Shown here piece by piece: positions 1 to 17,183 of a stretch of DNA of 34,021 nt. This stretch comes from Candidatus Hydrogenedentota bacterium (lineage in GTDB: Bacteria > Hydrogenedentota > Hydrogenedentia > Hydrogenedentales > SLHB01): contig JACRLJ010000128.1 of assembly GCA_016215105.1 (NCBI GenBank), positions 1 to 34,021 on the forward strand, read 5' to 3'. The translations under genes were made by a program, and so were the position numbers. Below the pieces are notes generated by a model. It had not been told where the DNA came from, searched no databases, and was given only the letters and a program-made list of their open reading frames with translations. Each line of letters opens with the position of its first letter. Within the stretch, counting starts at the first letter, position 1.

Positions 1-1
1 T

Positions 2-1366: not shown

Positions 1367-1440
1367 GGCGGTGTGGGTAGGCCATCGGACGCGCCGAGAC
1401 GGACGCGTCTACTATAACGGCGCTCTCGAAAGGTGAGGCG

Positions 1441-2889: not shown

Positions 2890-2986
2890 ACGTGTCCCGT
2901 TCCTCTAAGGCCTGATTCCGATGGCGCGGCGACGAACGGCGGGTTTGGAGAACCCGCCCTACCCTGCGCGGCTATCCGTACAAGAA

Positions 2987-3065
2987 TGGTACCGAGGAAG
3001 GGGTTCGAACCCTTGACCTCTGGATCCACAATCCAGCGCTCTAACCAAACTGAGCTACCCCGGCC
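2987..3065 (-). tRNA. tRNA-His (anticodon GTG)
   Basis: Reverse complement reads GCCGGGGTAGCTCAGTTTGGTTAGAGCGCTGGATTGTGGATCCAGAGGTCAAGGGTTCGAACCCCTTCCTCGGTACCA. It folds as a cloverleaf with D-stem GCTC/GAGC, anticodon stem CTGGA/TCCAG, loop TTGTGGA (anticodon GUG), T-arm AAGGG-TTCGAAC-CCCTT and encoded CCA. It sits immediately upstream of hisS on the same strand. Confidence 0.85.
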
Positions 3066-3322
3066 CGCAACGAACGAAGAAGCGCGTCTCCACGTGCGCG
3101 AGGCCCAATAGCCCCAAGCGCAATGCATACCGCGCAAATGTGGTCTCGTATGATAGCGGAATAACGGGCGCTGAATCAACCAGTTCAGCGCCCGCGACGC
3201 CGGGGGGCCGCTACTTACCCGTATTTGACCCGCATTTGACCCCTTGACAGGCTGATATCTTCATGATATCATTCTGATAGGTACCCAAGAATCCGCTTTT
3301 GTGAAGCGGGGGAGGTTCGGCG

Positions 3323-3760
3323 GTGTCGAAGAGTTGGCTATACACCTTGTTTGGAATGGGCAGGGTTCCTCGGGGCGAGCGGGCGGCGTTGGAAGCCGAG
3401 GGGGTGGTCTTGCTTGAAGAGGGCTTGACGGTGTCGGCGCTCTTGCGCAACTACCGGGCGCCGAAAGTGTATGCCTGGTGGCACTGGAACTGGGGCGCGG
3501 GGTCGCTGGTAGTGACGAAGCAGCGCCTCGTGGCGTACGCGCTTGGCCGGAGAATGGCGGATATTCCGTTGCCATTGACGACAGGCGGGCGAACGCGGGT
3601 TTGGATTGAGAAGCACCGTCGTTTGTGCGTGGAGTTTCACGCTGCGGACTTGTTCCCGGATCGCTCGGGAAAGGTGACACTGCGCTACCGGACGTTCGAC
3701 GCGGACCATATCGAGGCGACGATCCTTCGTCCGCCCCCGCAGAGGCGGGTGACTAGATGA
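3323..3760 (+). CDS. Hypothetical protein, bacterial PH-like (YokE-type) domain
   Basis: 145-aa ORF (GTG start) downstream of a TTGACA-N17-TATCAT promoter-like sequence at ~3246-3274. Sequence pattern GERAALEAEGVVLLEEG...GSLVVTKQRLVAY resembles small bacterial PH/GRAM-like domains. Codon bias is consistent with the genome. Confidence 0.45.
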   Translation: MSKSWLYTLFGMGRVPRGERAALEAEGVVLLEEGLTVSALLRNYRAPKVYAWWHWNWGAGSLVVTKQRLVAYALGRRMADIPLPLTTGGRTRVWIEKHRRLCVEFHAADLFPDRSGKVTLRYRTFDADHIEATILRPPPQRRVTR

Positions 3761-3827
3761 GCAACAAGACTCAGAAAATGATTTCCATTGGGGTTACGCC
3801 AGTTTACGCACGTAAGGAGATATTTGT

Positions 3828-4700
3828 ATGAAGACGAAAGAGGTGCGCGTTCAAGTTGTGAACGGGTTGCCCGTGGTGGGGCTGCAGATACTGATAGGAA
3901 TTGGGCTCGGCTACTGGTTCTTTCAAGCAGTTTCGCACACCCAGATCATGCAGTGTGCCGCTGCCATAATTCTCGCGGTGTTTTGGTTCGTCGCGTGGCT
4001 TGGGCTGTTCACGCTGCAGCCGAACGAGGCGGCGGTGCTGATGCTGTTCGGCAAGTATAAGGGAACGGCTACGGAGAGCGGGTTGCGCTGGGCAAATCCG
4101 TTTTACACCAAGACGAAGGTGTCGCAGCGGGCGCGGAACATCAACGGGACGCCGATCAAAGTAAACGACCTGCGGGGCAACCCGATTGAGATTGCGGCGG
4201 TGGTGGTGTGGCACGTGGAGGACACCGCGCAGGCCGTGTTCGACGTGGACCGGTACGAACAGTACGTGACCATACAGACGGAGTCGGCGCTTCGTCATCT
4301 GGCGATGGCGTATCCGTACGACGTGTTCGAAGGCGACACGTTATCGCTGCGCGGGAGCACGGACGAAGTGTCGGCGTCGTTGAAGACCGAGATTCAAGAC
4401 CGGGTGTCCAAGGCCGGGGTAGTCATTGACGAAGCGCGTCTGAGTCACCTGGCGTATGCGCAGGAGATCGCGGCGGTGATGTTGCAGCGGCAACAGGCCG
4501 AGGCGGTCGTGGCGGCGCGGACGCGGATCGTGGACGGCGCGGTGGGCATGGTCGAGATGGCGCTCGAACGTCTGGCGCAGCGGAAGACCATCGAATTGGA
4601 CGAGGAACGCAAGGCGGCAATGGTCAGCAATCTGTTGGTGGTGCTGTGTGGCCACGAGCCGGCGCGTCCGGTGATCAATACTGGGACCTTGTATACGTGA
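3828..4700 (+). CDS. SPFH/Band 7 (stomatin/prohibitin-like) family membrane protein
   Basis: 290-aa ORF with AAGGAG RBS 7 nt upstream of ATG. N-terminal TM helices then an SPFH core (LQPNEAAVLMLFGKY...GLRWANPFYTKTKVSQRARNINGTPIKVNDLRGNPIEIAAVVVW) followed by a coiled-coil-rich C-terminus. Confidence 0.8.
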   Translation: MKTKEVRVQVVNGLPVVGLQILIGIGLGYWFFQAVSHTQIMQCAAAIILAVFWFVAWLGLFTLQPNEAAVLMLFGKYKGTATESGLRWANPFYTKTKVSQRARNINGTPIKVNDLRGNPIEIAAVVVWHVEDTAQAVFDVDRYEQYVTIQTESALRHLAMAYPYDVFEGDTLSLRGSTDEVSASLKTEIQDRVSKAGVVIDEARLSHLAYAQEIAAVMLQRQQAEAVVAARTRIVDGAVGMVEMALERLAQRKTIELDEERKAAMVSNLLVVLCGHEPARPVINTGTLYT

Positions 4701-4713
4701 TGGGGCGTGGCGC

Positions 4714-4751
4714 TGGATCGGACGGATCAGACCGATCGGACCGATCGGACG
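4714..4751. repeat. Short tandem repeat, 9-bp unit x4 (GGATCGGAC / GGATCAGAC / CGATCGGAC / CGATCGGAC)
   Basis: Read directly in the intergenic region immediately after the SPFH stop codon. Confidence 0.6.
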
Positions 4752-4856
4752 GAGTAGTTGATGTAGAGCTTGCGTCGTTTGAGAGGGTTTGGGCGTTCCG
4801 GTTGCCGCGCTCGGCGAGCGCGGCAGTACTCGGGGGCGCCGTTGGAGGACATACCG

Positions 4857-5054
4857 ATGACACGGTGGGAATACTGGACCGTTACATTAAAGCCGACGGG
4901 TTTCTGGACCGCAAAGCTGGAAGATTCGGAAGTTACGGCCATCCTGAATAACGCAGGCCGCGAGGGCTGGGAATTGGCCGCGGCGCCCGCGCTCACGATG
5001 AGTTATGGCCAGACCGGTGGTGTATTGCTCCTGTTCAAGCGACCAAGCCATTAA
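4857..5054 (+). CDS. DUF4177-like small protein
   Basis: 66 aa from ATG 4857 (GGAGG RBS 9 nt upstream): MTRWEYWTVTLKPTGFWTAKLEDSEVTAILNNAGREGWELAAAPALTMSYGQTGGVLLLFKRP. The WEY...GWELV...LLFKR pattern is characteristic of DUF4177. The longer ORF from 4770 is probably a spurious extension. Confidence 0.55.
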   Translation: MTRWEYWTVTLKPTGFWTAKLEDSEVTAILNNAGREGWELAAAPALTMSYGQTGGVLLLFKRPSH

Positions 5055-5185
5055 CCCGGCGCCTGAAGAAACATGATTGGCGTAGTACGCACATGAGAGA
5101 GATGAGCGAATTAGAGCGCAGCAGACGAGCCGCCCCGGCGAGAATCCCGCTGGACGGGTTTGGGACTAGTGAATTGGAATGAATC

Positions 5186-5377
5186 GTGGCTGAACGGAAA
5201 ACATTTCTATTGCGGTTGCCGCCGGACTTGTACGACGACCTGAATCGTTGGGCCGCGGATGAATTGCGGAGTCTCAACGCGCAGATCGAGTATGTACTGC
5301 GGGAGGCTGCGCGCAAACGGAAAGGGGAACGGGAGGCGGATGCGCCGCCTGCGGGGACGGGGGATGGGGACACATGA
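5186..5377 (+). CDS. Arc/MetJ-type ribbon-helix-helix DNA-binding protein
   Basis: 63 aa with GTG start. [40 protein letters not shown] matches the Arc-like RHH DNA-binding domain consensus (FLLRLP.ELH..L...A...GRSLNAEI...L). Confidence 0.5.
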
Positions 5378-5387
5378 AAGGAGCATT

Positions 5388-5948
5388 GCCGTGGATGGGA
5401 CGTATTTTGAATGCAGGTTGGACTCGAAGACGCGCGTGATATCAATCCTCATTTTGCTAAGCGTGATCGCGGGGACGGTCGCTACGGTCGTGGTGTTGAT
5501 TCTTGTGGCCATGAGCCTAAGTACCGATCAGCGCTTGGCGCGACTCGTGTTGTTTGCCGCTGCCGGATTCGCGGTAATCGAGTTTTTGGGTTTGGCCGCG
5601 GTAGCGACGTTCGCTCCGAAAGGGTACTGGGTGGGGCCGGATGGTATCACGGTTGTTCGACGCAATGGACGGAAACTCGTCTTGGCGAAGGGGGAACTCG
5701 CATCTGCCGAGGAAGCCGAGCCGGAAGTACTGAAGCGGAGTACGCGATCCTGTGGCGGCAGTTTCTTTGGCCACTGGGGGCGGTTCAAGTGTTCCGCGCT
5801 CGGCAGCTTTCGTGGATACTGGGGAAATCGAGAGTCGTTGGTGTTGGTTCGCGACACCAGCGGGCGGCCCATCGTGTTGTCTCCAGAGTCCCGCGGGTAT
5901 GTTGTCGAGTGCGTAAACGAGTTGCTGGGCAAAGGGCGGCGGCGTTGA
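5388..5948 (+). CDS. Membrane protein, two TM helices plus bacterial PH (bPH_2/YdbS-like) domain
   Basis: GTG start 6 nt after a GGAG RBS, 11 nt after the RHH gene stop. Two hydrophobic helices (ISILILLSVIAGTVATVVVLILVAM; LVLFAAAGFAVIEFLGLAAVATFA) are followed by GYWVGPDGITVVRRNGRKLVLAKGEL, typical of membrane-flanked PH domains. Confidence 0.5.
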   Translation, partial: AVDGTYFECRLDSKTRVISILILLSVIAGTVATVVVLILVAMSLSTDQRLARLVLFAAAGFAVIEFLGLAAVATFAPKGYWVGPDGITVVRRNGRKLVLAKGELASAEEAEPEVLKRSTRSCGGSFFGHWGRFKCSALGSFRGYWGNRESLVLVRDTSGRPIVLSPESRGYVVECVNELLGKGRRR

Positions 5949-6051
5949 GTGGCGTGACACGAGAAGCGTATGCGATTGGGGATGGTGTGCGCGCTCGGGC
6001 GGTCTGCGCTCGTCGAGCGTAGACGTACTAAGGCGGACGTGGCGGAGATGT

Positions 6052-6152
6052 GGTCTCCTGCGTCCCTTTGGGACTGACCGGCAGGTGATCGGTGATCCGG
6101 GGGTTCTCTTCGGTCACCCCCGGCTACTCTCCTGGCGTCCCTTCGGGACTTT
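6052..6152. repeat. Structured ~100-bp repeat, copy 1 (three hairpins with UUCG-type loops)
   Basis: ctcctgcgtccctttgggactgac ... ccgggggt-tctcttcggtc-acccccgg ... ctcctggcgtcccttcgggactttgac. About 85% identical to copy 2 at 6927-7027, in direct orientation. Confidence 0.8.
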
Positions 6153-6267
6153 GACAGGTTGCAGGCGCCGTGGGATGCGGTTGGTATGCAGTTGGGAAGG
6201 AGTATGGAGAAGGTTTCAGAAGACAGGGGAATTGTTGAAGGATGAGTTGCAGGCATTTAACCCGTAG

Positions 6268-6899
6268 TTGAAGGTGCGCGGTATGTTTCAACGGACGTGG
6301 GAAGCATTGAAAGATGAGTCGAAGGTCGTCCTGTTGGTCGGGGCGGGATTTGCCGTGTCGCTTCTGGTTGGGATGGTGACGGCTCGATGGGGTCCTCGTC
6401 TCGAAACGAGCACATTGAGATGGTATTCGGCCGGTTCCGAGACGGGGTACGCGAGGGACAGCTTGGGGCCTTGGCGAGCGCAGCGCTTGTTCTCTTTGCT
6501 ATAAACCTATTCGCACTGATCGCGTGGACCGTGGCCTGTGCGTTCATCGTTCCTCTAGCGTCCTTGTTCTTCGGCGCCTGGGCCGTTGGAATTGACCTTC
6601 CCGGCTTGCACGGGTCATCGTTCCTCTCCGTGTTCCTACTTCTGATTGTGGTTGGCGTTGAGTGGGTTACGATTGTCCTCAGCGCGGCAGCCGGAACGAG
6701 TATCGGTCTTGCGACGATTTGTCCCGCGCGCGTCGGCTGCTCGTCGCGATGGCCTGCCTTCAAGCGCGCGTCTACGCAGGCCATGAATTTGTATGTGGTG
6801 ATCCTGGCCATTCTGGCGATTCAGACGGTGGTGGAAATCCTCTATGTGAGGCAGGTCCTGTTGATGGGCGGCACGGGCGTGCCCTTGGCGCCGTATTGA
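6268..6899 (+). CDS. Putative polytopic membrane protein (possible DUF95/SpoIIM-like), apparent frameshift between ORFs 6268-6504 and 6387-6899
   Basis: Two overlapping same-strand ORFs in different frames, both with hydrophobic helices (VVLLVGAGFAVSLLVGMV; LASAALVLFAINLFALIAWTVACAFIVPLASLFFGAWAVG...). The family assignment is weak. Confidence 0.3.
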
Positions 6900-6926
6900 A
6901 CGGCCAAGGGCGTCGTATAGTGTGGA

Positions 6927-7027
6927 GGTCTCCTGCGTCCCCTCGGGACTGACAGGTGGGTGGCTGGCGATCCGGGGGTTCCCTTCGGTCACCTCCGGCT
7001 ACTCTTCTGGCGTCCCTTCGGGACTTG
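6927..7027. repeat. Structured ~100-bp repeat, copy 2
   Basis: ggtctcctgcgtcccctcgggactgac ... ccgggggttcccttcggtcacctccgg ... cttctggcgtcccttcgggacttga. A direct repeat of copy 1. Stem positions vary while pairing is retained (G-U in the middle hairpin). Confidence 0.8.
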
Positions 7028-7039
7028 AATGGACGAGAC

Positions 7040-8285
7040 GGATCAGGGATGACTCGCCAGTAGAGAACGGGAGCTTAGTGCTCCCCAGTTTCAGGTCGGC
7101 AGTGCCGCCAATGCGCTAAAGGCAAGTTCCAGGGGGCATCTGGCGATCTGCAGGAAGTAATTGCCGATACGAGCCAGATAGATGACGCGTTCCTCTCGTG
7201 TGTTTGCCTTCATGAGCCGGGCGATGTCGAGGGTTTCGGCCGCGGCTCCGAAGGCGCATAGGAATACATAGGCCAGCGCCAGGATATAGAAGTGCCGGTC
7301 GTGTCGCTGAGGCTGGGATAGACGCACATGATCCATTCCAAGTCCCCAGTTGCGGTTCTTGGGGTCTCGGAACATGGCTTCGGTCCACATGCGACGCTTA
7401 TAGACGCGTACCACCTCTGCCGGGGGCTCAACGTCAAGATTGGTAACCAGATACCACGCTTCGTCGGCCTCGCGATCAAAGGTGGTCACCACTCGAATGG
7501 GGCCCATTGTTGCTCATCCATCGTACCCCAGCCCCAGTCCCTGGGTGTCCATCCGCGGCGTATCCCCAGTTCTTTGAGGCTACCCATGTGCTTTTCGACC
7601 GCGACCTGATGAATATGGGATAAACGCTGGACAAAGTACCATCCCCGGTTTGCGATATCGCTTAACCACCGCACGTTGCCGAAGCCCCGATCCGACACGA
7701 TAACCGGGGTAACTCCGACAGGGCACATCTCTGCGAGCATCTCCAGCGCTCGGTGCTCGCCGGCAATCATGGCGCCTTCCTGATCCCCCTGGTGTTCACT
7801 CTTGCGGATAGTCACACATAAGAAGGGAAGAGCGCGGCCATCGCGGGGCAGAGAAAACACCAACTGTTGAAACGGGGCCATATCCGTCCAATCCGCCAAA
7901 ACAATCGTGTGTCCAGTCGTTGGCCGAAAGAACGAAAACAACGCTGCGCTTATGGCTGAGGTCTCAAATTGGTCATTGCGCAACAACCGCCAAACTCGCT
8001 TGATACAGTGTTTGGCTGCGACTGCGCCAGCCATAGCACGTCCTAACGCCAGAACGCCAACCCCCCTCATCTGAAGCGCCGCGCTCACCACATCGGCCAA
8101 GGTTTTGCGCCGCGACTGCCGCATGGACTGGACATGCGTTTCCAACCACGTCAAAATGTTGCTCGGGTCGTACATGGATTTCTCCTCCTTGGATGGCTGC
8201 TAGTGGCAACTTCAGCCTATTTTAGACGAGAACCGCCGTCTACGACCCACTGCTATACAGACTTAGGGAGACTGGGGATCACTGA
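7040..8285 (-). mobile_element. IS4-family insertion sequence (boundaries approximate)
   Basis: Contains the transposase ORFs 7091-8175. Possible imperfect terminal repeats near ~7069-7084 (tgctccccagtttcag) and ~8268-8283 (reverse complement tgatccccagtctccc). Exact ends not resolved by eye. Confidence 0.55.
7091..8175 (-). pseudogene. IS4-family DDE transposase, interrupted by a frameshift (ORFs 7486-8175 and 7091-7507)
   Basis: N-terminal ORF carries D (LADWTD) and D (VSDRGFGN). C-terminal ORF carries YKRRMWTEAMFRDPK, an exact Y-(2)-R-(3)-E-(6)-K IS4 signature. The two frames overlap at 7486-7507 around a GGGGCCCC run. Confidence 0.7.
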
Positions 8286-8579
8286 GATGCAGAGCAGGCG
8301 AGGTTTACGCGTTCCGGGAGGCCGTGCTACCATCTTGCCGGTTATGGGGCGTGCGACTAGATTGCGGGGTGCTTTCATGAGGGCGATAATCGCTAAAAGG
8401 GTGAAAGGCAATTCGTGGGGGAGAACTGTAGGCGACAGCCCCGAAGGACTTCTGCGGAACAGCAACATAGGGGTTCCTGCGCCCCCTATGCAGCTTGAGA
8501 AAGGGAGTCTCTGTCCAGTTTCGCCGGCTTTATTCCGCGGTTTTACATTGCAGCGTCGCCGTCTGATGCGCTAACTTCG

Positions 8580-9464
8580 ATGGAACCCAACTGGCGAATA
8601 ATCGAACAAGAGAATCGGGGGTTATCGATTCAGTCCGCCTGTGCTCTCGGAGAAGGGTGGAACTCTCGCGCTTACCTGGTAAACAACGCGCTGGTCTTCA
8701 GGTTCCCTAAACGGCCCGATCAATGGGGGGAACTTCGGCGCGAGATCGACTTTCTGGATTTTGCGGCAGATTTGCTTCCGCTAAGCGTCCCTCGGTATGT
8801 CGGGGTGAATCCGGAATCGCTTGCCGCAGCATGTGGCTACGCTATGTACCGGTACTTGGCCGGGGATTTGTTGGATCTTCGTGTTATGTCGCAGACTGAG
8901 CGCGGTAAGGCGTCTGATTGTATTGCTACGTTCTTACGGGCCTTACACAGATTGGAACCGAGTCCTGAAATTGGGGACGCTTTACCGAGGGAAGATGCGC
9001 GAAAGGTCGCAGAGTACTACCTGGAGCGTACCGAACGCGAGATCGCGCCAAAGCTGCAAATGCGGGACGCTAAGGCCTTGGTCGCGCAATTTGAGGCGTA
9101 TCTCAGCAGATCCGAAAACTTTCTGTTCCGGCCCGTGGTTCTCCACGCCGATCTCGGCCGAACGCATCTCTTGATGGAAGACAGCGCAGTCGTTGCAGTT
9201 CTTGATTTTGGCGACATCAACTGGGGTGACCCCGACTACGATTTCGTCTATCTGTTCAATGATTTTGGTCCCGTGTTCGTCGAGGCAGTGGCGCTCAGCT
9301 ATGGGCATCCCGACCTTGAAAGCCTTCGAAGCAAGCTCCGGTACTATGCAGTAGTGGACCAAGTGGACACTATTCTGCACGGTGGCGGTCGTGCCCTTGA
9401 TGGCCAAGAAACGGAGGCGTGGCGTCGTCTCAGACAGTTCGTCCGGCGAAAGAATTGCGAGTAA
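8580..9464 (+). CDS. Aminoglycoside phosphotransferase, APH(2'')-like (phosphotransferase enzyme family)
   Basis: 294 aa. N-terminal GEGWNSRAYLVNNALVFRFPK parallels APH(2'')-Ia [21 protein letters not shown]. Catalytic region VLHADLGRTHLLMEDSAVVAVLDFGDINWGDPDYDFVYLFND parallels [41 protein letters not shown] (Brenner motif HxDxxxxN and the DFG-like IDFGD). GC is lower than the surrounding genome. Confidence 0.75.
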   Translation: MEPNWRIIEQENRGLSIQSACALGEGWNSRAYLVNNALVFRFPKRPDQWGELRREIDFLDFAADLLPLSVPRYVGVNPESLAAACGYAMYRYLAGDLLDLRVMSQTERGKASDCIATFLRALHRLEPSPEIGDALPREDARKVAEYYLERTEREIAPKLQMRDAKALVAQFEAYLSRSENFLFRPVVLHADLGRTHLLMEDSAVVAVLDFGDINWGDPDYDFVYLFNDFGPVFVEAVALSYGHPDLESLRSKLRYYAVVDQVDTILHGGGRALDGQETEAWRRLRQFVRRKNCE

Positions 9465-9549
9465 CGTTATGCTCAAACAGGCCAGTACCGAGAACTCATT
9501 CTTTGCGCGGTTCAACCGTAGCGTAGTATCGACAGAGGGAGGCTAACGG

Positions 9550-10425
9550 ATGCTACATATTCTCGCGCTTCTTCTTCCGTGTATCGCGCTATCTGCTCAT
9601 CCCTGGAATGCGCCGTATGCTCGTATCGATTACGGCTTCTATTTCCTCAACTATCTCGATCAACTTTACGGCTTCCCTCTGTGTATCTGCTTTCTCACGC
9701 TCACGGCCTATCGATCCCGAAGGGACCTTCGCTATTGGGCCATAGGACTACCACTGCTGCCAATCGCCGTCGTCACCTTTCCCTTACGTATAGCGCTACC
9801 AGGCGTCGTTTCCGGTCTGATGGGCATTGGCGAAGATGAGCTACAGCGGTTGCTCGTTATATATGCCATGAGCGAAGTGTTTGTATTCCTGACCTTAGAC
9901 CGCCTCGCCAATTTCAGGCCGCTTCAATCTGGAATTCTGCTGGTACTCGTCATGCTCATCGCCGGTCTAGTTGGATTGATCGGATATCAATATCCGCTTT
10001 ACGGCGCCGCTGAACACTTGACGTTCGTCTTGGTAACGACGGCCGCGGTCTATTGTGCGGGGCTAAGTTGCTCGTACCCCTTTCGTTTCCGAAGATTTGC
10101 CGTTTGGCTCTTCTTTTGGGATGTTCTCGTGATGTTGGTTGCCTGGCCCCTGGTGTGGCTGGTTCTTATGCTTCTGGTGTTTCGTGAATCAGATACCGAC
10201 ATCGCGGCTTATCTGCCACTGCACCTGCTAATTGGTTTGGTTGATGGTGTCGGCCTGTTCTTCATCTTGCACGCGCCATTCCTTGTCTTGGTTCGGTACA
10301 GCAGGCTCTATGGCGAGCGTTTTCGTAAATTACTCCGAAGGGACGACAAGGGCGATAGCGAGAATAAGACGCTACTGCTCCAGACACAGGACGGGGCGGA
10401 CCAAGGTGGACGACAAGTCCAATGA
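9550..10425 (+). CDS. Hypothetical polytopic integral membrane protein
   Basis: 291 aa with GGGAGG RBS 6 nt upstream of ATG and about 8 hydrophobic helices. No recognisable family. Lies in the same lower-GC segment as the APH(2'')-like gene. Confidence 0.6.
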   Translation: MLHILALLLPCIALSAHPWNAPYARIDYGFYFLNYLDQLYGFPLCICFLTLTAYRSRRDLRYWAIGLPLLPIAVVTFPLRIALPGVVSGLMGIGEDELQRLLVIYAMSEVFVFLTLDRLANFRPLQSGILLVLVMLIAGLVGLIGYQYPLYGAAEHLTFVLVTTAAVYCAGLSCSYPFRFRRFAVWLFFWDVLVMLVAWPLVWLVLMLLVFRESDTDIAAYLPLHLLIGLVDGVGLFFILHAPFLVLVRYSRLYGERFRKLLRRDDKGDSENKTLLLQTQDGADQGGRQVQ

Positions 10426-10669
10426 AACTTCAATACCGTGATCTCGACGCGCGTCCTGAGAAACATGCAGGAATCCAATAGTGCGATCGCGAACTATGCA
10501 CGCCATGCACAAAACCGCGCACAACCGACCCATTTGGGCATAAGCCAGAGACCTGCGATTCTTCGCACGTCCCTGATCGTGTTAAGAGTGGCGGGGCACG
10601 ATTTGAACCCGCGACCTTTGGGTTATGACCGAAATAGGGGGATCGCTAGCCCAGTGAAATCATTGTAGT

Positions 10670-13600
10670 CTACCCGGCGCCCGCCGCCGCGCCTGGGGCG
10701 CCGCGGGTGTCCAGCAGCACGAGATTCGGCAGAGCGGTCCTCAGCCGAGATGCCGCTCCGGCGGTCAGCGGGGTCTTGGATTTCACCCACACGTGGCGCA
10801 GTGATTTGAGGTTCTCCAGTTGACGGAGGCCCGCGTCGGTGAAATTGCCTTCAACCCTCAATCGGTCCAAAGACGGACTGGCGGCCAAGTATGCCAGCCC
10901 CCGATCCGTTACCAAGTCCCCACCGATCGTCAATAAATCGAGATGCTTTAGACTGGCGAGGTGCGCCATACCCGGATCGCCGAACGAGCTCCCGCCAGTA
11001 GATTGCAGGCCACGCAGATTCGGCGCGCTGGCTACCCATGCAAGATCTTCGTCGCGCAACGCCGGGACACGTTTTCCCTGCGGTCCCGATTGGACTATGA
11101 AGACCACATTATCGAGTTTTGTCAAGCCAGAGAGGTCGAGCGCCGCATCGTCTCGAATGAGGGTGTCCATACTTAGGCGGCGCAGATTCGTTAGCCGGTT
11201 GAGATAGTTTGCGCCGGTAACGGTCAAGCCACCAGTGTTGTACCCTCCAATTTCAAGCCACTCAAGTGAGGTGATGGACGCAAGGGAGCGCATTCCCTGG
11301 TTCGTCATATTGCACGCACACAGATTTAGCGTCTTCAAGTTCCGCAGCTTGGTAAGTTTCTCGATGCCTGCGTCCGTGAAACCCGCGTCCGATCCGATCA
11401 CCAACGTTTCGAGATTTGGAAGCGTGGATACGGATTCGAGACCCGCGTCCGTAAATGGTCCCGGCTCCGTCCGCGATCCGGTGATTGCCCCGCCGCCGCA
11501 CCAAAGTGTCTTCAGATTCTTCAGTTGAGCTATGGCCGCCAAACCGCGGTCGGAGTTTTGCATTGGCAAACGCAGGTTCTCGAGTGAGGTCAGCGCCGCG
11601 AGCTGCGCTATACCGTTGTCGGTGACGTTCTTAAAGTGGTGCACTGAAAGGGTCTTTAGTTTAGATAACGGCTTAAGGTAGGCGACCCCGGCGTCCGTGA
11701 TAGAATCAACCCACACAAAGTTGAGTTCCTCGATATTAGGTAACTGGCCGATATACTGCATACCGGCGTCGGTGACGCCAAGCTTTGCGCCAAACAGGGT
11801 CAATATCTTGAGTGATTTGATCTTCTTGAGCTGCGCCAACCCAGAGTCGCCGAGCCCGACACCCTCCAGCACGAGAAACTCAAGTTTGGGCAGGTCGGCA
11901 AGCTTGGCGAGCCCTGAGTCCCCGAGACGGTTGCACATCACGGACAACTCGCGAAGATTGGACAGCGAGGCCAACTGGCTCAGCCCTTGGCCGGTTGGCA
12001 GGCCATCGAAGACCAGGGATTGCAGCGAATGCAGGCGCGCGATGTGCGAGAGCGATGCGTCGCCCAGAGCATCCGTTTTCAGGAAGAGGACTTCAAGATT
12101 CTCCAGCCGCGAGAGGTGACGGATTCCCTTATCCGAAAGGCCCGGCCCGCGGTGAAACAGGGCGTACACTACGAGTTCTTTGAGGCCCGTCAGCCCCGAC
12201 AGATGTGGTAGTACGGCCTCATCCACATCCAATTTGGCGTTTTCGGGTATTTCCAGGACCAGGGCGTACAGGTCGTCCGGGCGGAGCCGATCGAGCGGCG
12301 ACAAGTCCTGGAGCGCGCTGTGGCCGACCTCCAGTTTCACGGGCAGGCCTTCAGGAACGCTTACCGCGCCGCGAGCATCGGCAAGAAAGTGCCAGGCTAG
12401 CGTCCAGGGAGGCGTCGGAGAATTGTGGAAGGTGTTATCCCCTGCTCCGTCCGGTAAGGATTCCGGAAGCCTCACGAAGAGAGTTCCAAGTGAACGATCG
12501 GACGGAAACATGATGGTGCGGGCCTTCGACCTCGCTACAGGCGCGGGGACCGGCGTCTCCGTGGATGTGACCTTCGCCTCGCGAGCGGGAGGCTGGTTCT
12601 GGGGCGCGGTGTCCTGGGCCTGGGCGATGGCCGCGCCGTGGGGCGTGAATGAGAAGCCTGGCACACACAGTAACCCGAGTCCCAGCAAGAGGGCCAAGGC
12701 GCCGGTCGAAAGCTTCGGTCTGGGTTCCAAGGCGGAGGCAATGCTGGCCACGCGCACTTTGAGGTCGCTGAACGACTCCGAGGCAATCGCCGCGAACGCG
12801 GTGGTGTCGTTCTTTGTGCCGCATAATTCCGCCGCGGCCACGAGCGCTCTTGCGTATACGCTGGGCCGCTCGTTGCTAGCGGCTAGAACTAACGAGTCGC
12901 AGGCTTGTTCACGTTCAAGTAAGACGCGTCGCCGCACGAAATGCACTACGGGGTGAAAGAAGTAGGTTGTCTCGCAGATGGCGAGCAGCATGCCCAGGCT
13001 AGAATCTCCCCGGCGCACATGAGTGAATTCGTGGGCCAGCACGGCCAGGAGACTTCCCTGCGTGGCCGTGGCAACCAGATGCGCCGGCATGACCACGGCG
13101 GGCCGACGGGTCCCCAATGCAAATGGCGAGACACGTTCATTCGTGATGACCAGTCGAGGCAGGCGCCGCAAACCGACCATATCGGCGGCTTGGCGCGCGA
13201 GGGCCAGCAGCGGACCGTCCGTGACCGGCGTCCCACGCGCGATGATGCGTCGCGCGCGGCGCCACGCGCGCGTCAGGCGCAGCGCCCAGAATGCCATGCC
13301 CGCAAACCAAGCGAGCATAAGAATAGCCGCCGCGTTCACTCCGCGCGGCGGGGCAAAGTCGTCTACCTTCGACGGCGTGGCCGGCGCCGATGCTATTGGG
13401 GTGGCGGCTTCCGACGCGACAGAATACGCAGCAAACTCATCGGAACCGCCGAAGGCGTGCTGGGACACAAAGCTTGCCGTTTGGAGCGCTGGGGGCGCCG
13501 CGGTCTCGGGCGCGCCAGGAGCTGGCAACACGGGAACTGGAATGGTCAGGATGGGCATAACGAGCAGCCTCAGGGGCACGAGCATCCACAGCCACAAGCG

Positions 13601-13741
13601 AAAGTTGGGCGTGGTTTTTCGCAGTCTAGTCGAGAGGAGCAGAAGAACCAGAGTGAGGGCCGTGCTCTGCCACACCGCCGCCCACATTCCCGCGGCCCAT
13701 CGGGTCGCAAAGTCATTCAGAGCCGCTGTTTCCCAAATCAT
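10670..13741 (-). CDS. BlaR1/MecR1-type M56 metalloprotease signal transducer fused to a large C-terminal leucine-rich-repeat (LRR) domain
   Basis: Start at ATG 13741 (AGGAGG RBS 8 nt upstream; MIWETAALNDF...). N-terminal ~320 aa has TM helices and the M56 zinc motif LAVLAHEFTHVRRGDS (cf. HELAHIRRRD). A Pro/Ala-rich linker follows. The last ~600 aa are ~20 tandem ~24-residue LRRs (L..L..L..L.L....ItD.Gl..L). Confidence 0.8.
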   Translation of the reverse strand: MIWETAALNDFATRWAAGMWAAVWQSTALTLVLLLLSTRLRKTTPNFRLWLWMLVPLRLLVMPILTIPVPVLPAPGAPETAAPPALQTASFVSQHAFGGSDEFAAYSVASEAATPIASAPATPSKVDDFAPPRGVNAAAILMLAWFAGMAFWALRLTRAWRRARRIIARGTPVTDGPLLALARQAADMVGLRRLPRLVITNERVSPFALGTRRPAVVMPAHLVATATQGSLLAVLAHEFTHVRRGDSSLGMLLAICETTYFFHPVVHFVRRRVLLEREQACDSLVLAASNERPSVYARALVAAAELCGTKNDTTAFAAIASESFSDLKVRVASIASALEPRPKLSTGALALLLGLGLLCVPGFSFTPHGAAIAQAQDTAPQNQPPAREAKVTSTETPVPAPVARSKARTIMFPSDRSLGTLFVRLPESLPDGAGDNTFHNSPTPPWTLAWHFLADARGAVSVPEGLPVKLEVGHSALQDLSPLDRLRPDDLYALVLEIPENAKLDVDEAVLPHLSGLTGLKELVVYALFHRGPGLSDKGIRHLSRLENLEVLFLKTDALGDASLSHIARLHSLQSLVFDGLPTGQGLSQLASLSNLRELSVMCNRLGDSGLAKLADLPKLEFLVLEGVGLGDSGLAQLKKIKSLKILTLFGAKLGVTDAGMQYIGQLPNIEELNFVWVDSITDAGVAYLKPLSKLKTLSVHHFKNVTDNGIAQLAALTSLENLRLPMQNSDRGLAAIAQLKNLKTLWCGGGAITGSRTEPGPFTDAGLESVSTLPNLETLVIGSDAGFTDAGIEKLTKLRNLKTLNLCACNMTNQGMRSLASITSLEWLEIGGYNTGGLTVTGANYLNRLTNLRRLSMDTLIRDDAALDLSGLTKLDNVVFIVQSGPQGKRVPALRDEDLAWVASAPNLRGLQSTGGSSFGDPGMAHLASLKHLDLLTIGGDLVTDRGLAYLAASPSLDRLRVEGNFTDAGLRQLENLKSLRHVWVKSKTPLTAGAASRLRTALPNLVLLDTRGAPGAAAGAG

Positions 13742-14135
13742 GGCCTTTACCCTCCTCTTGGCGCTCCAGGTTCCGTACCAGGTCGCGCAATTGGCGCGCC
13801 TGCTCATCGGTCAACGCTTTGGTGTTCGCCAGATACGCCAGAAACGGGGCCGGCGACCCGTCGAGCACCGTTTCCACGAAATCGCGGATCAGTCCCTTCA
13901 AGACCTTGCCACGTGTTTGTGTGGGCCAGAAACGATAGACCCCTTTGACCTTGCGGCGCTTGAGACAGTCTTTCACGTGCAGACGCTGCATGACCGTGAG
14001 CACCGTCGTACGCGCCAGGCCGCGTCGTTCAGCGAATTCCTCGGCCACTTCCTGGACCGTGCGCCCGGGCGCTTCCCAGACGGCCTTGAGCACTTCGAGT
14101 TCCAGTTCACCCAATCCCTGCGGTTTCGCCGCCAT
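13713..14135 (-). CDS. BlaI/MecI/CopY-family winged-helix transcriptional repressor
   Basis: 140 aa: LGELELEVLKAVWEAPGRTVQEVAEEF...ARTTVLTVMQRLHVKDCLKRRKVKGVYRFWP...ALTDEQARQLRDLV matches the penicillinase-repressor family. GAGGAG RBS is upstream. Its 3' end overlaps the BlaR1-like gene start, suggesting translational coupling. Confidence 0.85.
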   Translation of the reverse strand: MAAKPQGLGELELEVLKAVWEAPGRTVQEVAEEFAERRGLARTTVLTVMQRLHVKDCLKRRKVKGVYRFWPTQTRGKVLKGLIRDFVETVLDGSPAPFLAYLANTKALTDEQARQLRDLVRNLERQEEGKGHDLGNSGSE

Positions 14136-14171
14136 AGCCTAGGTCTCCTCAAATGCGCGGGGTGTTTTTCA

Positions 14172-14243
14172 GACTACTTCAGTAGTCACTGTTCAAATAT
14201 ACTACGAGCGTAGTCATTTGTCAAGTGGTCTTGAGCGTAGTCC
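14172..14243. promoter_or_regulatory. Candidate BlaI-type operator dyads (GACTAC-N4-GTAGTC; ACTACG-AG-CGTAGT; a third half-site GAGCGTAGTC)
   Basis: Perfect palindromes gactacttcagtagtc (14172-14187) and actacgagcgtagt (14201-14214) sit 37-100 bp upstream of the blaI-like start. BlaI/CopY-family repressors bind TAC-containing dyads of this type. Confidence 0.4.
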
Positions 14244-14495
14244 CGTGCGGGCGGTACTGAGACGTGGTATTAGAGACCTACAGATCGGAGGGGTATCCCG
14301 CGCCTCATTGCGGATTCGAGTTGCTCGTTGGCAAGGCCGCGTCGTCGCGGGTGAATGCGTACAAGGCCGCGCGCAGTCGCCCTGTTGGGTATGAAAGAAA
14401 GGACCTGCGATTTCTCGCAAGTCCCAGATAGTGTCAATGGTAGCGGGGGCAGGATTTGAATCTGCGGCCTCGTGGATTTCAGCGACGACAACAAC

Positions 14496-15875
14496 CTACA
14501 GCCTGATGTCTTTGAGTTTCCAACCCTTGCGGAAGGCCGGTTTGATGAACTCGTTGGCTTTCTCGTTGTTGGTGAAACGCAGGTTCTTGGCGTCCCACAG
14601 GAGTTCCTCGTTCGGGAACCGCCAACTGAGGGCGCCCAGCAGAACCCATTCCGTGTACGGACCCGCGATGCCGAAGGGCGAACACGTCTCGCCATCGCCT
14701 TTGCACGCCCGGATCCAGTTTTCGAAATGTCCCGGCGATCGCTTCAAAACCAGCGCAGGCAGGACATAATCCTTCATCTTGGCTCTCGGAAGCAGGGTCA
14801 CAGACTCGCCACGGCCTCCCGTTCCCATATACCCCTTCGTGCCTACAAATATCTCGTTGATGTCCTTCAGATCAGCTCCCGCGATTTCCGCAGGCGGCGT
14901 ATATTTTGCCGCCATGTTCCCTTCATACCAGTGGACCGTGACCGGCCCCATCCGGCCCCCGGGAACATACGGATTTGGACGGTCTGCGAATTTCATCTTG
15001 CACGCATAGTGCGGATAGGTGACCGGATTAACCCCCTCGACCGTGATGCACTGCACGCTCACTGGGCTGCCGAGTTGCAGACCCCAATTCGCCGGTCCGA
15101 GCATATGGATACCCCAATCGCCGATCATCTGGGAACCGTACTCCAGAAACCCGCGCCAGTTCGACGGATGAATCTTTGAACTGAAAGGATGCTGCGCTAC
15201 ACGGCCGGACCATAGATCCCAATCCAACGTAGAGGGCACGGGCTCGGCTGCGGGCCATGCGGTTATGTCGCGCGCAAAGCCGCCGCCGCACGTCGTGTGG
15301 ACCTCTGTAATGTCCCCGAGGGCGCCGCTCCACATGATCTCGCACGCCACCCGCGTGGCTTCCGAAGAGTACCCTTGGTTGCCCATTTGCGTCACCACGT
15401 TGTATTTCTTCGCGGCCTTCGTCAAGAGACGCGCTTCCCACACGCTCTGCGTGAGGGGTTTCTGGCAGTACACGTTCACCCCCAGTTTCATGGCGCGCAG
15501 CGCGACCGAGGCATGCATGTGGTCGGGTATGGTGATCGTGATCCCATCGAGATTCTTGTGCTCTTTGTCGAGCATCTTGCGAAAATCCCGGTACAACTTG
15601 GCCTTGGGAAACGCCTCCGCCGCCTTACGCAAGAACGCCTCGTCCACGTCGCAAAGGGCATAGATGTTCTCGCCACGCACGCTGCGGACATCGTTTAGTC
15701 CCTGCATTCCGCCCACACCGACGCAACCGATGTTCATCTTGTCGCTCGGCGCCTTCCGGCCCGAGGCCGCCACAACATGGCGCGGCACAATGGAAAAAGC
15801 CGCCGCTGCCACCGTTGAAGCCAGGAATTCCCGCCGTGTAAACCCTTTGTTGCGCATGAATCTGCTCCTGTACAT
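14496..15875 (-). CDS. Gfo/Idh/MocA-family NAD(P)-dependent oxidoreductase with Tat signal peptide
   Basis: Twin-arginine motif TRREFLASTVAAAAF. Rossmann motif NIGCVGVGGMQG and the typical Gfo/Idh/MocA core (ALCDVD..., DGITITIPDHMHA, YCQKPL). An alternative start at 15857 (MRNKGF...) has a better RBS. Confidence 0.85.
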   Translation of the reverse strand: MYRSRFMRNKGFTRREFLASTVAAAAFSIVPRHVVAASGRKAPSDKMNIGCVGVGGMQGLNDVRSVRGENIYALCDVDEAFLRKAAEAFPKAKLYRDFRKMLDKEHKNLDGITITIPDHMHASVALRAMKLGVNVYCQKPLTQSVWEARLLTKAAKKYNVVTQMGNQGYSSEATRVACEIMWSGALGDITEVHTTCGGGFARDITAWPAAEPVPSTLDWDLWSGRVAQHPFSSKIHPSNWRGFLEYGSQMIGDWGIHMLGPANWGLQLGSPVSVQCITVEGVNPVTYPHYACKMKFADRPNPYVPGGRMGPVTVHWYEGNMAAKYTPPAEIAGADLKDINEIFVGTKGYMGTGGRGESVTLLPRAKMKDYVLPALVLKRSPGHFENWIRACKGDGETCSPFGIAGPYTEWVLLGALSWRFPNEELLWDAKNLRFTNNEKANEFIKPAFRKGWKLKDIRL

Positions 15876-16238: not shown

Positions 16239-17105
16239 TTGCGGTCCAGCCCATACCCCGTTATAATCGTTCCACCCAACGAAAAGAGACGAATCTTGAA
16301 GCCGAGCGATGTTCCCCTGGCAGCGATCTGCGCCGATATTGAGCGATCGTGCTCACTTTCTATTCGTAATGTCGAACATATTTCCCTGACCGCTCGCAGC
16401 GCGGTTTATCTTGCGGAAACGCCCAATGAACGAATGGTCCTGAAGCTATCCGCAAATTCCTCGCCGACTCTCACGTCAGCCCAGGAATTTCAGGCGCTTC
16501 AGGCAGTGCGTATCCAAGGGCAGGTTCGCGCTCCAGTTGCCGTGGCGCACGGTAAACACCTCGGAGTCAGTTGGCTTCTTCAGGAATTTCTTGGAGGAGA
16601 ATCGCTTTCAAGCTTCTTCATAAGCGAGACTCAGTGCGCGGATGATCACCTTGAAGACATTTTCCAAGCGGGGCAGCTTCTAGCCAAGCTTCACGCAGAC
16701 GCCAAGACCGGCCACTCTGCGCAACGTTCACTCGATCACGCGTTGGAAGTGGCTGCGTACAATCTCGAGAATTCCCTCTATGACCCGGACGAATTCTTGG
16801 GTATCGCGCCACCCGGCGAGATCTATGAGTATCTACGCACGCAGCGTCCAGATTCTCTGCGGGAATGTCTGCTCCATGGGGACTTTCGTCCAAAGAATAT
16901 CCTCGTACAGAAGAACGGTCAACTTGCCCTGATTGACTGGGAACACAGTTTCCCTGGCGATCCCTATTATGACCTCGCTGTCTTTGCTTACTACTGTAGT
17001 CAGGACAGCGTCTTGACCAGATTTCTCGACGGCTATCGGTTGACCGCTATTGATCGCGAGAGACTTCGCTATTTCGATCTGCTCAGTAAGCTTCTGAATG
17101 TCTAG
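16239..17105 (+). CDS. Phosphotransferase enzyme family protein (APH/choline-kinase-like fold)
   Basis: Catalytic motifs LLHGDFRPKNILVQKNGQLALIDWEHSFPGDPYYDLAVF (HGDxxxxN plus IDW/D). Start codon uncertain (TTG at 16239 or a downstream alternative). Lower GC than neighbouring genes. Confidence 0.7.
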   Translation: MRSSPYPVIIVPPNEKRRILKPSDVPLAAICADIERSCSLSIRNVEHISLTARSAVYLAETPNERMVLKLSANSSPTLTSAQEFQALQAVRIQGQVRAPVAVAHGKHLGVSWLLQEFLGGESLSSFFISETQCADDHLEDIFQAGQLLAKLHADAKTGHSAQRSLDHALEVAAYNLENSLYDPDEFLGIAPPGEIYEYLRTQRPDSLRECLLHGDFRPKNILVQKNGQLALIDWEHSFPGDPYYDLAVFAYYCSQDSVLTRFLDGYRLTAIDRERLRYFDLLSKLLNV

Positions 17106-17183
17106 CGAAAAGCGTCGCATTCCGGAAATCATCTGTTCGAATCTTTCGCTAGACGGGGCAACTCTAGTGCCTGCAATAAGAAA

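What the first reader, a model, noticed from the sequence alone, without database searches (positions are those of the whole stretch)
7040..10660. Lower-GC accessory segment: frameshifted IS4 transposase, an APH(2'')-like kinase and a membrane protein, ending at a tRNA-like T-arm fragment
- From about 8.2 to 10.4 kb the GC content drops visibly (to roughly the low-to-mid 50s%) relative to flanking genes (mid 60s%).
- An IS4-family IS bounds the segment on one side (Y-2-R-3-E-6-K present, DDE residues present, frameshift at 7486-7507).
- At 10590-10660 (minus-strand sense) there is a GGTCGCGGGTTCAAATC...GCCCCGCCA motif.
- That motif looks like a tRNA T-arm plus acceptor end, but I could not fold it into a complete tRNA.
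- Together this looks like a horizontally acquired islet carrying a candidate aminoglycoside-modifying enzyme.
- The large LRR gene begins immediately after the tRNA-like fragment.
Basis: partly seen in the sequence, partly recalled or inferred. Interest (0 to 1): 0.55.

Follow-up and report, generated by a model that had tools for sequence, protein, structure and literature searches.

The report
Dead IS, kinase gene, initiator-tRNA scar
This stretch of an uncultured Hydrogenedentes genome is an ordinary patch of accessory DNA (a dead insertion sequence, a resistance-like kinase gene and a rare membrane-protein gene), and its tRNA-like motif is a leftover 3' piece of an initiator tRNA gene that, with a second copy 3.8 kb away, brackets the neighbouring sensor operon rather than the kinase segment.

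Summary
The window is a whole 34,021-bp contig of a Candidatus Hydrogenedentes MAG.

- **IS:** a 1,213-bp IS4-family insertion sequence lies at 7074-8286. Its transposase is broken by a one-base deletion in a G run (7499-7505). This copy has no target-site duplication.
- **Kinase:** 8580-9464 encodes an APH-family kinase. It is closest to APH(2'')-IIIa but scores far below the curated resistance-family cut-offs.
- **Membrane protein:** 9550-10425 encodes a polytopic membrane protein of a very rare family.
- **Composition:** GC is 54% against 59% for the window, not mid-60s flanks. It is the most atypical tetranucleotide patch, but two other patches are as GC-poor.
- **tRNA-like motif:** 10589-10632 (minus strand) is the 3' part of an initiator tRNA-fMet gene, starting in the anticodon loop. 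It shares 29 bases exactly with real tRNA-fMet genes and has a damaged T stem.
- **New result:** the motif is one copy of a ~125-nt imperfect direct repeat (tRNA fragment plus terminator). The other copy is at 14361-14485. Together they bracket the blaI / M56-LRR operon.

Canonical geometry therefore puts the tRNA-marked island on the LRR side. The kinase segment is probably foreign, but its route of entry is unknown. This is a known kind of feature and of modest interest.

The parts
7074..8286 (-). IS4-family insertion sequence, 1,213 bp. Terminal inverted repeats are at 7074-7089 and 8271-8286. No target-site duplication (flanks GAACGGGAG / ATGCAGAGC).
   Evidence: 82% DNA identity to intact copies L191/L192 over exactly 8288-7073, and 73% to L196, which has a 9-bp duplication CATCTGTGT. 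IRs. The repaired transposase scores 175.3 bits against the 152 cut-off of NF033591.
7499..7505 (-). Frameshift site. One base is missing from a G run (sense strand GGGCCCC against GGGG[T/A]CCC in intact relatives). This splits the transposase into ORFs 8175-7486 and 7507-7091.
   Evidence: Alignment A1, column 807. Frames shown. The repaired protein is 361 aa, the same length as more than 100 full-length homologues, the best at 88% identity.
8580..9464 (+). APH-family kinase (294 aa), closest to APH(2'')-IIIa. Motifs present: K44, H189-x-D191-x4-H196 and D209-F-G-D212.
   Evidence: Pfam APH 1.9e-30. NCBIfam APH(2'')-IIIa 97.6 bits against a 625 cut-off. PDB 6ctz/3tdw E about 1e-29. Motif positions. 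Homologues at 51-65% identity in Blastocatellia, Terriglobales, Gemmatimonadaceae and unnamed metagenome contigs, and one at 80% in another Hydrogenedentes MAG.
9550..10425 (+). Polytopic membrane protein (291 aa) of a rare uncharacterised family.
   Evidence: No Pfam, NCBIfam or PHROGs hit. One distant homologue among 5.8 billion clusters. 17 matching representatives, self included, among 1.84 billion, at 27-37% identity; some are fused to TPR or thioredoxin domains. Hydropathy profile.
10589..10632 (-). Displaced 3' fragment of an initiator tRNA-fMet gene, from anticodon-loop position 33 to discriminator A73. The 3' strand of the T stem is damaged (CGTG instead of CCCGC or CCTGC).
   Evidence: The 29-nt stretch is an exact match to real tRNA-Met(CAT) initiator genes. 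Not called by ARAGORN or Rfam. No 5' half.
10509..10632 (-). Direct-repeat copy 1: the tRNA-fMet 3' fragment plus about 80 nt of downstream sequence, including a decayed terminator hairpin (GGAC-G-TGCGA-AGAA-TCGCA-G-GTC).
   Evidence: Pairs with 14361-14485: 92/122 identical, local score 49 against a null mean of 8.8, sd 1.3, max 18. blastn E=6e-16.
14361..14485 (-). Direct-repeat copy 2: a second initiator-tRNA 3' fragment (14438-14485; T arm GCAGA/TTCAAAT/CCTGC, then CCCCGCT-A-CCA). It is followed by a terminator hairpin and TTTCTTTC.
   Evidence: It aligns to real tRNA-fMet genes from the anticodon loop to the 3' end at 78% identity.
10670..14135 (-). The blaI-like repressor (13713-14135) and the BlaR1/M56 peptidase-LRR protein (10670-13741 as called; longest ORF runs to 13807). 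This is the module bracketed by the two tDNA-derived repeats.
   Evidence: Pfam Peptidase_M56 3.4e-34 plus LRR families. BlaI NCBIfam match. Gene calls and 100% identical independent assembly in L069.

Best explanation
The region is a mosaic of accessory DNA made of independent pieces, not one islet.

1. **tRNA-like motif.** It is a displaced 3' fragment of an initiator tRNA-fMet gene. Tyrosine integrases leave this kind of scar when an element integrates with its crossover in the anticodon loop. The motif is the downstream copy of a ~125-nt imperfect direct repeat (tRNA 3' part plus that gene's terminator). The upstream copy is at 14361-14485. The two copies bracket the blaI / M56-LRR operon. 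That operon is therefore the att-flanked, integrase-less module: a decayed island, or a CIME-like remnant in a tandem array. No intact tRNA-fMet gene lies in the window.
2. **APH kinase and membrane-protein genes.** They lie beyond the last fragment, where the canonical geometry places the original chromosomal flank. Their low GC3, odd tetranucleotide usage and patchy or rare distribution suggest they are accessory, probably foreign, DNA. Their route of entry is unknown.
3. **IS4-family element.** It is a separate insertion, now inactivated by a one-base deletion. Its missing target-site duplication suggests an IS-associated rearrangement or an assembly join at that point.

Shown: identities, coordinates, repeats and composition. 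Inferred: integrase-mediated origin, the order of events and the foreignness of the kinase pair.
For: **The motif is a tRNA-fMet 3' fragment**
- A 29-nt stretch matches real tRNA-fMet genes exactly, and the fragment starts at U33.

**It is one copy of a direct repeat**
- A second fragment exists, and the 125-nt repeat is highly significant.
- Both fragments start in the anticodon loop.
- The three tandem initiator-tRNA fragments in an unrelated contig, L153, also start there. They separate small integrase-less modules.

**Geometry and mechanism**
- The Islander rule states that the island lies between the tDNA and its fragment, with the 3' fragment downstream. It also reports that anticodon-centred sites are common (PMC4383910).
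- CIMEs and accretion are described in PMC5704250.

**The layout is real**
- An independent Logan assembly, L069, reproduces 9356-14463 at 100% identity. This confirms the order membrane gene, fragment, M56-LRR, blaI, fragment 2.

**Composition and distribution of the kinase pair**
- Searches give the composition; searches give the distribution.

**The IS**
- Anatomy and lesion.
Against: - No intact tRNA-fMet gene and no integrase is present in the 34 kb, so formal island criteria are not met.
- The two repeats are only 75% identical, so an old segmental duplication cannot be excluded.
- Similarity extends about 80 nt beyond the tRNA part, more than a minimal att core needs.
- The kinase segment, placed in the 'host flank', is the most foreign-looking DNA of the window. 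The array may once have continued leftwards.
- No close relative was available to show an empty site.
Confidence: 0.6

Rival explanations
1. The span from IS through APH and membrane gene to the tRNA fragment (about 7.0-10.7 kb) is one horizontally acquired islet that entered at a tRNA gene. The tRNA fragment is one boundary and the IS marks the other. One version has it as the oldest member of the tandem array, with its own terminal fragment removed by an IS-mediated deletion.
For: Lowest GC3 and lowest tetranucleotide correlation in the window. The membrane gene is nearly an orphan. The kinase has non-conserved neighbourhoods in other genomes. The IS lacks a target-site duplication, which is compatible with an IS-associated deletion at the left edge.
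Against: The fragment's orientation puts its island on the other side (PMC4383910). Its repeat partner is at 14.4 kb, not left of the kinase. No tDNA scrap lies in 8287-8579. No integrase was found. The IS is a self-contained element with relatives elsewhere.
Confidence: 0.2
2. Nothing here is recently foreign. The kinase and membrane genes are native, weakly expressed genes whose lower GC3 reflects relaxed codon selection. The tRNA-fMet pieces are decayed remains of redundant paralogous tRNA genes or of an old segmental duplication, not integration scars.
For: The GC deviation is modest, about 5 points and 1.4-1.7 sd in GC3. Other genes in the window are equally GC-poor. An 80% identical kinase exists in another Hydrogenedentes MAG. 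The repeats are only 75% identical and extend past the tRNA part.
Against: Both window fragments and all three in L153 begin at the same place, the anticodon loop. This points to site-specific recombination rather than random decay. A tRNA-Pro fragment in the same window also starts in the anticodon loop. The membrane gene has no homologue in any other Hydrogenedentes sequence found.
Confidence: 0.15
3. The left boundary is an assembly artefact. The MAG contig was joined across a multi-copy IS, so 1-7073 and 8287-34021 may not be neighbours in the genome. The frameshift may be a homopolymer error.
For: No target-site duplication. Relatives of this IS mostly assemble as isolated 1.2-1.6-kb contigs, typical of collapsed repeats. 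The lesion is in a homopolymer run. Independent Logan contigs cover only 9348-14463, not the IS junctions.
Against: No second copy of the IS is seen in the window. No intact identical copy is in the protein collection; the best hit is 88%. Frameshifted IS copies are common in real genomes.
Confidence: 0.1

Closest known systems
Displaced tDNA 3' fragments and tandem islands at tRNA genes (Islander signature; anticodon-centred attachment sites)
   Same: An end fragment of a tRNA gene that runs from the anticodon loop to the discriminator. It occurs as direct repeats in the same orientation and brackets a gene module. Several such scars lie in one region (PMC4383910).
   Different: No intact cognate tRNA gene and no integrase in the window. 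The bracketed module is only about 3.7 kb. Repeat similarity continues about 80 nt past the tRNA into the terminator.
CIMEs (cis-mobilizable elements) and the accretion model of tandem integrated elements
   Same: A module flanked by att-like repeats with no integration or transfer genes of its own, sitting in what looks like an array (PMC5704250).
   Different: No active partner element is seen. Mobility is untested. The repeats are diverged (75%) and one T stem is damaged, so the sites may no longer work.
IS4 family insertion sequences (NCBIfam NF033591 type; nearest named plasmid relative ISEc60)
   Same: DDE transposase with Y-2-R-3-E-6-K, a single 361-aa ORF in intact relatives, 16-19-bp terminal inverted repeats, and a 9-bp target duplication in a relative.
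   Different: This copy is frameshifted and has no target duplication. It is only 27% identical to ISEc60, so it is an unnamed lineage known from metagenomes.
APH(2'') aminoglycoside phosphotransferases, especially APH(2'')-IIIa (PDB 3tdw/6ctz)
   Same: Full-length alignment and the same kinase-like motifs, including HxDxxxxH and DFGD.
   Different: Scores 98 bits against a family cut-off of 625. It belongs to a large environmental clade of untested function, and its substrate is unknown.

Membership tests
IS4 family insertion sequence | Transposase matches the curated IS4 model above its cut-off | tested here: met
   The repaired 361-aa protein scores 175.3 bits against the 152 cut-off of NF033591. 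The two halves alone score 86 and 91 bits.
IS4 family insertion sequence | Y-(2)-R-(3)-E-(6)-K signature in the C-terminal DDE region | tested here: met
   YKRRMWTEAMFRDPK at residue 259 of the repaired protein.
IS4 family insertion sequence | Terminal inverted repeats at the ends of the element | tested here: met
   CTTAGTGCTCCCCAGT at 7074-7089 and ACTGGGGATCACTGAG at 8271-8286. The ends coincide with the limits of similarity to three other copies.
IS4 family insertion sequence | Direct target-site duplication flanking the element | tested here: not met
   Flanks are GAACGGGAG and ATGCAGAGC, 2 of 9 matching. The relative L196 has a 9-bp duplication, CATCTGTGT.
IS4 family insertion sequence | Intact single transposase ORF (an active element) | tested here: not met
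   One-base deletion at 7499-7505 splits the ORF. There is no slippery heptamer in the overlap.
APH(2'') aminoglycoside phosphotransferase | APH kinase-like domain with catalytic motifs | tested here: met
   PF01636 at 1.9e-30. K44, H189/D191/H196 and D209/D212 are present.
APH(2'') aminoglycoside phosphotransferase | Score above the curated cut-off of a named APH(2'') resistance family | tested here: not met
   Best is APH(2'')-IIIa at 97.6 bits against 625. All others are lower.
APH(2'') aminoglycoside phosphotransferase | Phosphorylates aminoglycosides and confers resistance | not testable with these tools
   Needs expression and MIC or enzyme assays.
tRNA gene | Complete cloverleaf recognised by tRNA finders | tested here: not met
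   ARAGORN at default and at 80% thresholds finds nothing. Rfam finds nothing even in truncated mode at E<=10. The known tRNA-Pro fragment gave a clan hit as positive control.
Displaced tDNA 3' fragment (integration scar) | End fragment of a tRNA gene, significantly similar to real genes and reaching the 3' end | tested here: met
   A 29-nt exact match plus CCCCGCCA. blastn E=8e-12 against a real initiator tRNA. The 5' half is absent.
tDNA-integrated genomic island (Islander criteria) | Intact cognate tRNA gene upstream of the fragment in the same replicon, in the same orientation | tested here: not met
   No tRNA-fMet gene in the 34-kb contig, only tRNA-His and tRNA-Pro. The rest of the genome was not available.
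tDNA-integrated genomic island (Islander criteria) | Tyrosine integrase gene inside the candidate island | tested here: not met
   No integrase domain in any ORF scanned across the window.
CIME-like decayed element | Flanked by att-derived direct repeats but lacking integration and transfer genes | tested here: met
   The 125-nt direct repeats at 10509-10632 and 14361-14485 flank only blaI and M56-LRR.
CIME-like decayed element | Can be excised or mobilised by a related element's integrase | not testable with these tools
   Needs reads or PCR for circular junctions, or genetics.

The most novel reading that the evidence does not exclude
Arrays of very small, integrase-less gene modules (about 1.5-6.6 kb), each ending in a tRNA 3' fragment plus terminator, are seen here for tRNA-fMet and tRNA-Pro and independently in contig L153. 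They could be the product of a recurrent, integron-like gene-capture process. In it, anticodon-loop att sites in tRNA genes would serve as stacking points for cassettes handled by an integrase encoded elsewhere, rather than being mere fossils of large decayed islands.
Probability: 0.08. Interest if true: 0.7.

Novelty: new member of a known kind. Interest (0 to 1): 0.3.

Why it matters
It corrects the reading of the locus. The tRNA scar marks the blaI / BlaR1-LRR sensor module, not the kinase gene, as the att-flanked unit. The 'candidate aminoglycoside-modifying enzyme' is a distant, untested relative of APH(2'') with no demonstrated link to a mobile element. It should not be counted as a mobile resistance gene.

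It also records that initiator tRNA genes serve as anticodon-loop integration targets in an uncultured phylum. Short tDNA scars that standard tRNA finders miss can be recovered by exact-word comparison with real tRNA genes.

Tried and rejected
- **Synteny through HisRS.** 68 genome loci were fetched, the nearest at 72-74% identity. No gene order is shared beyond tRNA-His, so this was uninformative for the islet question.
- **Metagenome scan with the M56-LRR protein.** No relative was found.
- **Exact-protein look-ups.** The kinase, its 80% homologue P0004 and ORF 6387-6899 are not indexed, so the context of the closest kinase homologue could not be seen.
- **Complete tRNA or tRNA pseudogene.** A relaxed ARAGORN run gave an implausible 92-nt 'tRNA-Ala' overlapping the LRR stop codon. 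The 5'-half similarity is not significant (p about 0.11). This reading was rejected.
- **Stable RNA structure.** The region does not fold better than shuffles (z=0.6).
- **Programmed frameshifting in the IS.** Rejected. Intact relatives have one continuous 361-aa ORF, the lesion is a single missing base, and there is no slippery site.
- **The two APH genes as recent duplicates.** Rejected; they are 24% identical.
- **Compensatory T-stem change between the two fragments.** I first read one as evidence for separate tRNA alleles. I withdrew it because the damaged 3' strand of fragment 1 (C-G-T-G) resembles CCTGC as much as CCCGC. A clean compensatory pair is seen only within L153.
- **Promoter and terminator scan of 6.8-10.8 kb.** Nothing above shuffle expectation.
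- **PHROGs scan of the unknown ORFs.** No phage link.


Full report
**Source and layout**

The kinase protein matches, at 100% identity, an NCBI entry from a 'Candidatus Hydrogenedentes bacterium' MAG whose contig is 34,021 bp long. The window is therefore the whole contig. Gene content from Pfam, NCBIfam and tRNA scans, from left to right:

| Coordinates | Strand | Feature |
|---|---|---|
| 1441-2889 | - | HisRS |
| 2987-3064 | - | tRNA-His |
| 3828-4700 | + | Band7 |
| 5259-5948, 6387-6899 | + | two unknown ORFs |
| 7074-8286 | - | IS |
| 8580-9464 | + | APH-family kinase |
| 9550-10425 | + | membrane protein |
| 10589-10632 | - | tRNA-like motif |
| 10670-13741 | - | M56 peptidase-LRR protein |
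| 13713-14135 | - | BlaI-like repressor |
| 14496-15875 | - | GFO/IDH/MocA oxidoreductase |
| 16239-17105 | + | second APH-family gene |

To the right lie further accessory-looking genes up to tRNA-Pro (28296-28372, -), then rhomboid, adenylate kinase and a glycosidase.

**Composition**

- The window is 58.9% GC.
- Segment 8287-10589 is 54.0%, the IS is 57.0%, the left flank 60.4% and the right flank 59.1%. The drop is real, about five points, but the flanks are not in the mid-60s.
- GC3 is 0.597 for the kinase and 0.575 for the membrane gene. With the second APH gene (0.557) these are the three lowest of 23 genes (mean 0.688, sd 0.065).
- The 2.3-kb window 8251-10550 has the lowest tetranucleotide correlation with the whole window (r=0.727, z=2.1). 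Windows 15.5-17.8 kb and 19.8-22.0 kb come close.
- The segment is atypical, but it is one of three such patches.

**The IS**

- The two overlapping minus-strand ORFs match the N- and C-terminal parts of the IS4 model NF033591.
- Joining them at the overlap gives a 361-aa protein that scores 175 bits against a cut-off of 152.
- This protein aligns end to end with more than 100 intact 361-aa proteins, the best at 88% identity. Most sit on 1.2-1.6-kb contigs, as multi-copy IS usually do.
- DNA of three such copies aligns with the window exactly from 8288 to 7073. This fixes the element at 7074-8286, with ends CTCAGTG...CACTGAG.
- The alignment shows one base missing from a G run at 7499-7505. 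It is a plain inactivating deletion or a homopolymer error, not programmed frameshifting.
- A relative (L196) has a 9-bp target duplication. The window copy has none. Either the element took part in a rearrangement, or the contig was joined across a repeat.
- The nearest named plasmid IS is ISEc60, at 27% identity.

**The kinase**

- It is a full-length APH-domain protein.
- Its best curated and structural matches are APH(2'')-IIIa: 97.6 bits against a family cut-off of 625, and PDB 6ctz/3tdw at E about 1e-29.
- The lysine, HxDxxxxH and DFGD motifs are present.
- It belongs to a large environmental clade, 51-65% identical in Blastocatellia, Terriglobales and Gemmatimonadaceae MAGs and in unnamed metagenome contigs. 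One 80% identical but C-terminally truncated homologue sits in another Hydrogenedentes MAG.
- In two homologue-bearing contigs the neighbours differ (glyoxalase/NUDIX in one, PIN toxin-antitoxin genes in the other). Neither has the membrane gene.
- It is only 24% identical to the second APH gene of the window, which is APH(3')-like.
- 'APH(2'')-like' is fair as homology. Resistance function is untested.

**The membrane protein**

- It has no family match.
- It has one distant homologue in the 5.8-billion-cluster collection.
- The search of 1.84 billion cluster representatives returned 17 matches, the protein itself included, at 27-37% identity.
- In some of these the domain is fused to TPR repeats or a thioredoxin-like domain.
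- It is a real but rare gene of unknown function.

**The tRNA-like motif**

- ARAGORN and Rfam do not call it, even when the stretch is cut so that truncated matches are allowed. The known tRNA-Pro fragment gave a clan hit as positive control.
- A 28-nt pattern taken from it, with one degenerate base, matched at least 120 metagenome contigs. All 84 stretches that ARAGORN could call are tRNA-Met(CAT) genes of initiator type, CGCGGGG...GGGCTCATAACCC[A/G]AAGGTCGCGGGTTCAAATCCCGCCCCCGC-A.
- The window sequence matches these genes from U33 through the T loop (29 of 29) and again in the acceptor strand and discriminator (CCCCGCCA).
- The 3' strand of the T stem reads CGTG instead of five pairing bases.
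- Upstream there is no significant similarity to the 5' half (p about 0.11).
- It is therefore a 3' end fragment of an initiator tRNA gene that begins in the anticodon loop.

**The second fragment and the direct repeat**

- A blastn search in the style of the Islander algorithm found a second initiator-tRNA piece at 14438-14460, on the same strand.
- Read in full it runs from 14485 to 14438: T arm GCAGA/TTCAAAT/CCTGC, then CCCCGCT-A-CCA. It is followed by a hairpin and a T-rich tail typical of an intrinsic terminator.
- The stretches 10632-10509 and 14485-14361 align at 92 of 122 positions. The local score is 49, against 8.8 +/- 1.3 (max 18) for the rest of the window. An all-against-all search of intergenic DNA gives E=6e-16.
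- Both copies start in the anticodon-loop region.
- Between them lie only blaI and the M56-LRR gene.
- An independent Logan assembly, L069, reproduces 9356-14463 at 100% identity, so this layout is not an artefact of the MAG assembly.

**What this means**

- Tyrosine integrases that target tRNA genes leave an intact gene, the island, and then a displaced fragment. A 3' fragment lies downstream of the island, and anticodon-centred sites are common (PMC4383910).
- Elements that keep att sites but lose their integrase are known as CIMEs, and they accumulate in tandem by accretion (PMC5704250).
- For minus-strand fragments the island lies at higher coordinates. The pair of repeats therefore marks blaI / M56-LRR as the att-flanked module, probably one member of a decayed array whose intact tRNA-fMet gene lies outside the contig or has been lost.
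- The kinase-membrane pair sits where the original flank would be. No tDNA scrap lies to its left, and no integrase is present anywhere in the window.
- The same window holds tRNA-Pro with 3' fragments and terminator copies at 21678-21721, 19510-19552 and 17164-17224. The first of these also starts in the anticodon loop.
- An unrelated metagenome contig, L153, carries three tandem initiator-tRNA fragments. Each starts at CTCATAA and is followed by a terminator. They separate small integrase-less modules.
- The shared start point in all these fragments argues for site-specific recombination rather than random decay.

**Limits**

- No close relative was found. The nearest HisRS is 72-74% identical and shares no gene order beyond tRNA-His. 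A metagenome scan with the LRR protein found nothing.
- The foreign origin of the kinase pair thus rests on composition and distribution only.
- The repeats are 75% identical and extend beyond the tRNA part, so an old duplication is not excluded.
- The IS junctions are not independently confirmed.

**Verdict**

The pieces are real and mostly correctly named. They are independent, however, and the tRNA scar belongs to the neighbouring module. This is a new member of known kinds (IS4 element, environmental APH homologue, tDNA integration scars) and of modest interest.

Noticed in passing
window 17164-17224, 19450-19552, 21619-21721, 28183-28372 (minus strand): The 3' part of tRNA-Pro(TGG), together with its downstream terminator hairpin, is repeated three more times downstream of the intact gene. 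The copy at 21678-21721 starts in the anticodon loop, the copy at 19510-19552 keeps only the last ~15 nt, and the copy at 17164-17224 keeps only the terminator. It looks like a tandem array of decayed islands covering 17.2-28.3 kb, with no integrase.
   Followed up: partly
window 6052-6151 and 6927-7026: A 100-nt direct repeat (88% identical) folds into three hairpins. One copy follows each of the two unknown ORFs just left of the IS. There is no Rfam match at gathering thresholds, and its nature is unknown (REP- or MITE-like, or a 3' UTR element).
   Followed up: partly
window 16239-17105 (+): A second APH-family gene, remotely APH(3')-like (82 bits against a 205 cut-off). It has the lowest GC3 of the window (0.557) and is only 24% identical to the first kinase.
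   Followed up: partly
L153 779-826, 2655-2698, 4047-4110 (+): An unrelated JGI contig has three tandem initiator-tRNA 3' fragments. Each starts at CTCATAA and is followed by a terminator. They separate small modules (DUF2283 plus ERCC4 nuclease; a methyltransferase). There is no intact tRNA and no integrase in 5.9 kb. The third fragment has a compensatory T-stem variant (GCAGG/CCTGC).
   Followed up: partly
window 6335-6352 (minus strand): A possible further tRNA scrap, CAAATCC..CGCCCCGACCA, resembling the tRNA-Pro 3' end with a 3-nt gap. The blastn E-values are borderline (0.03-0.4).
   Followed up: no
L069 = window 9356-14463; L070 = window 9348-10617: Two independent single-sample assemblies both begin within 8 nt of each other inside the kinase gene. 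They end inside the two tRNA-fMet fragments (10617 and 14463). This could reflect graph branching at repeats or strain variation, or just low coverage.
   Followed up: no
P0004 (another Hydrogenedentes MAG, 41.6-kb contig): The closest kinase homologue (80% identity) is collinear to residue 233 and then diverges and stops at 242 aa. It is possibly a pseudogene in that genome.
   Followed up: partly
L006, L017, L020, L025, L028 and others: tRNA-His lies immediately upstream of hisS in 13 of 68 loci from several phyla, as in the window. This is the only conserved neighbourhood around HisRS.
   Followed up: no
window 4803-4825 and 26463-26533: Intergenic palindromes or inverted repeats (23 nt at 96% and 74 nt at 78%) turned up in the all-against-all intergenic search.
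   Followed up: no
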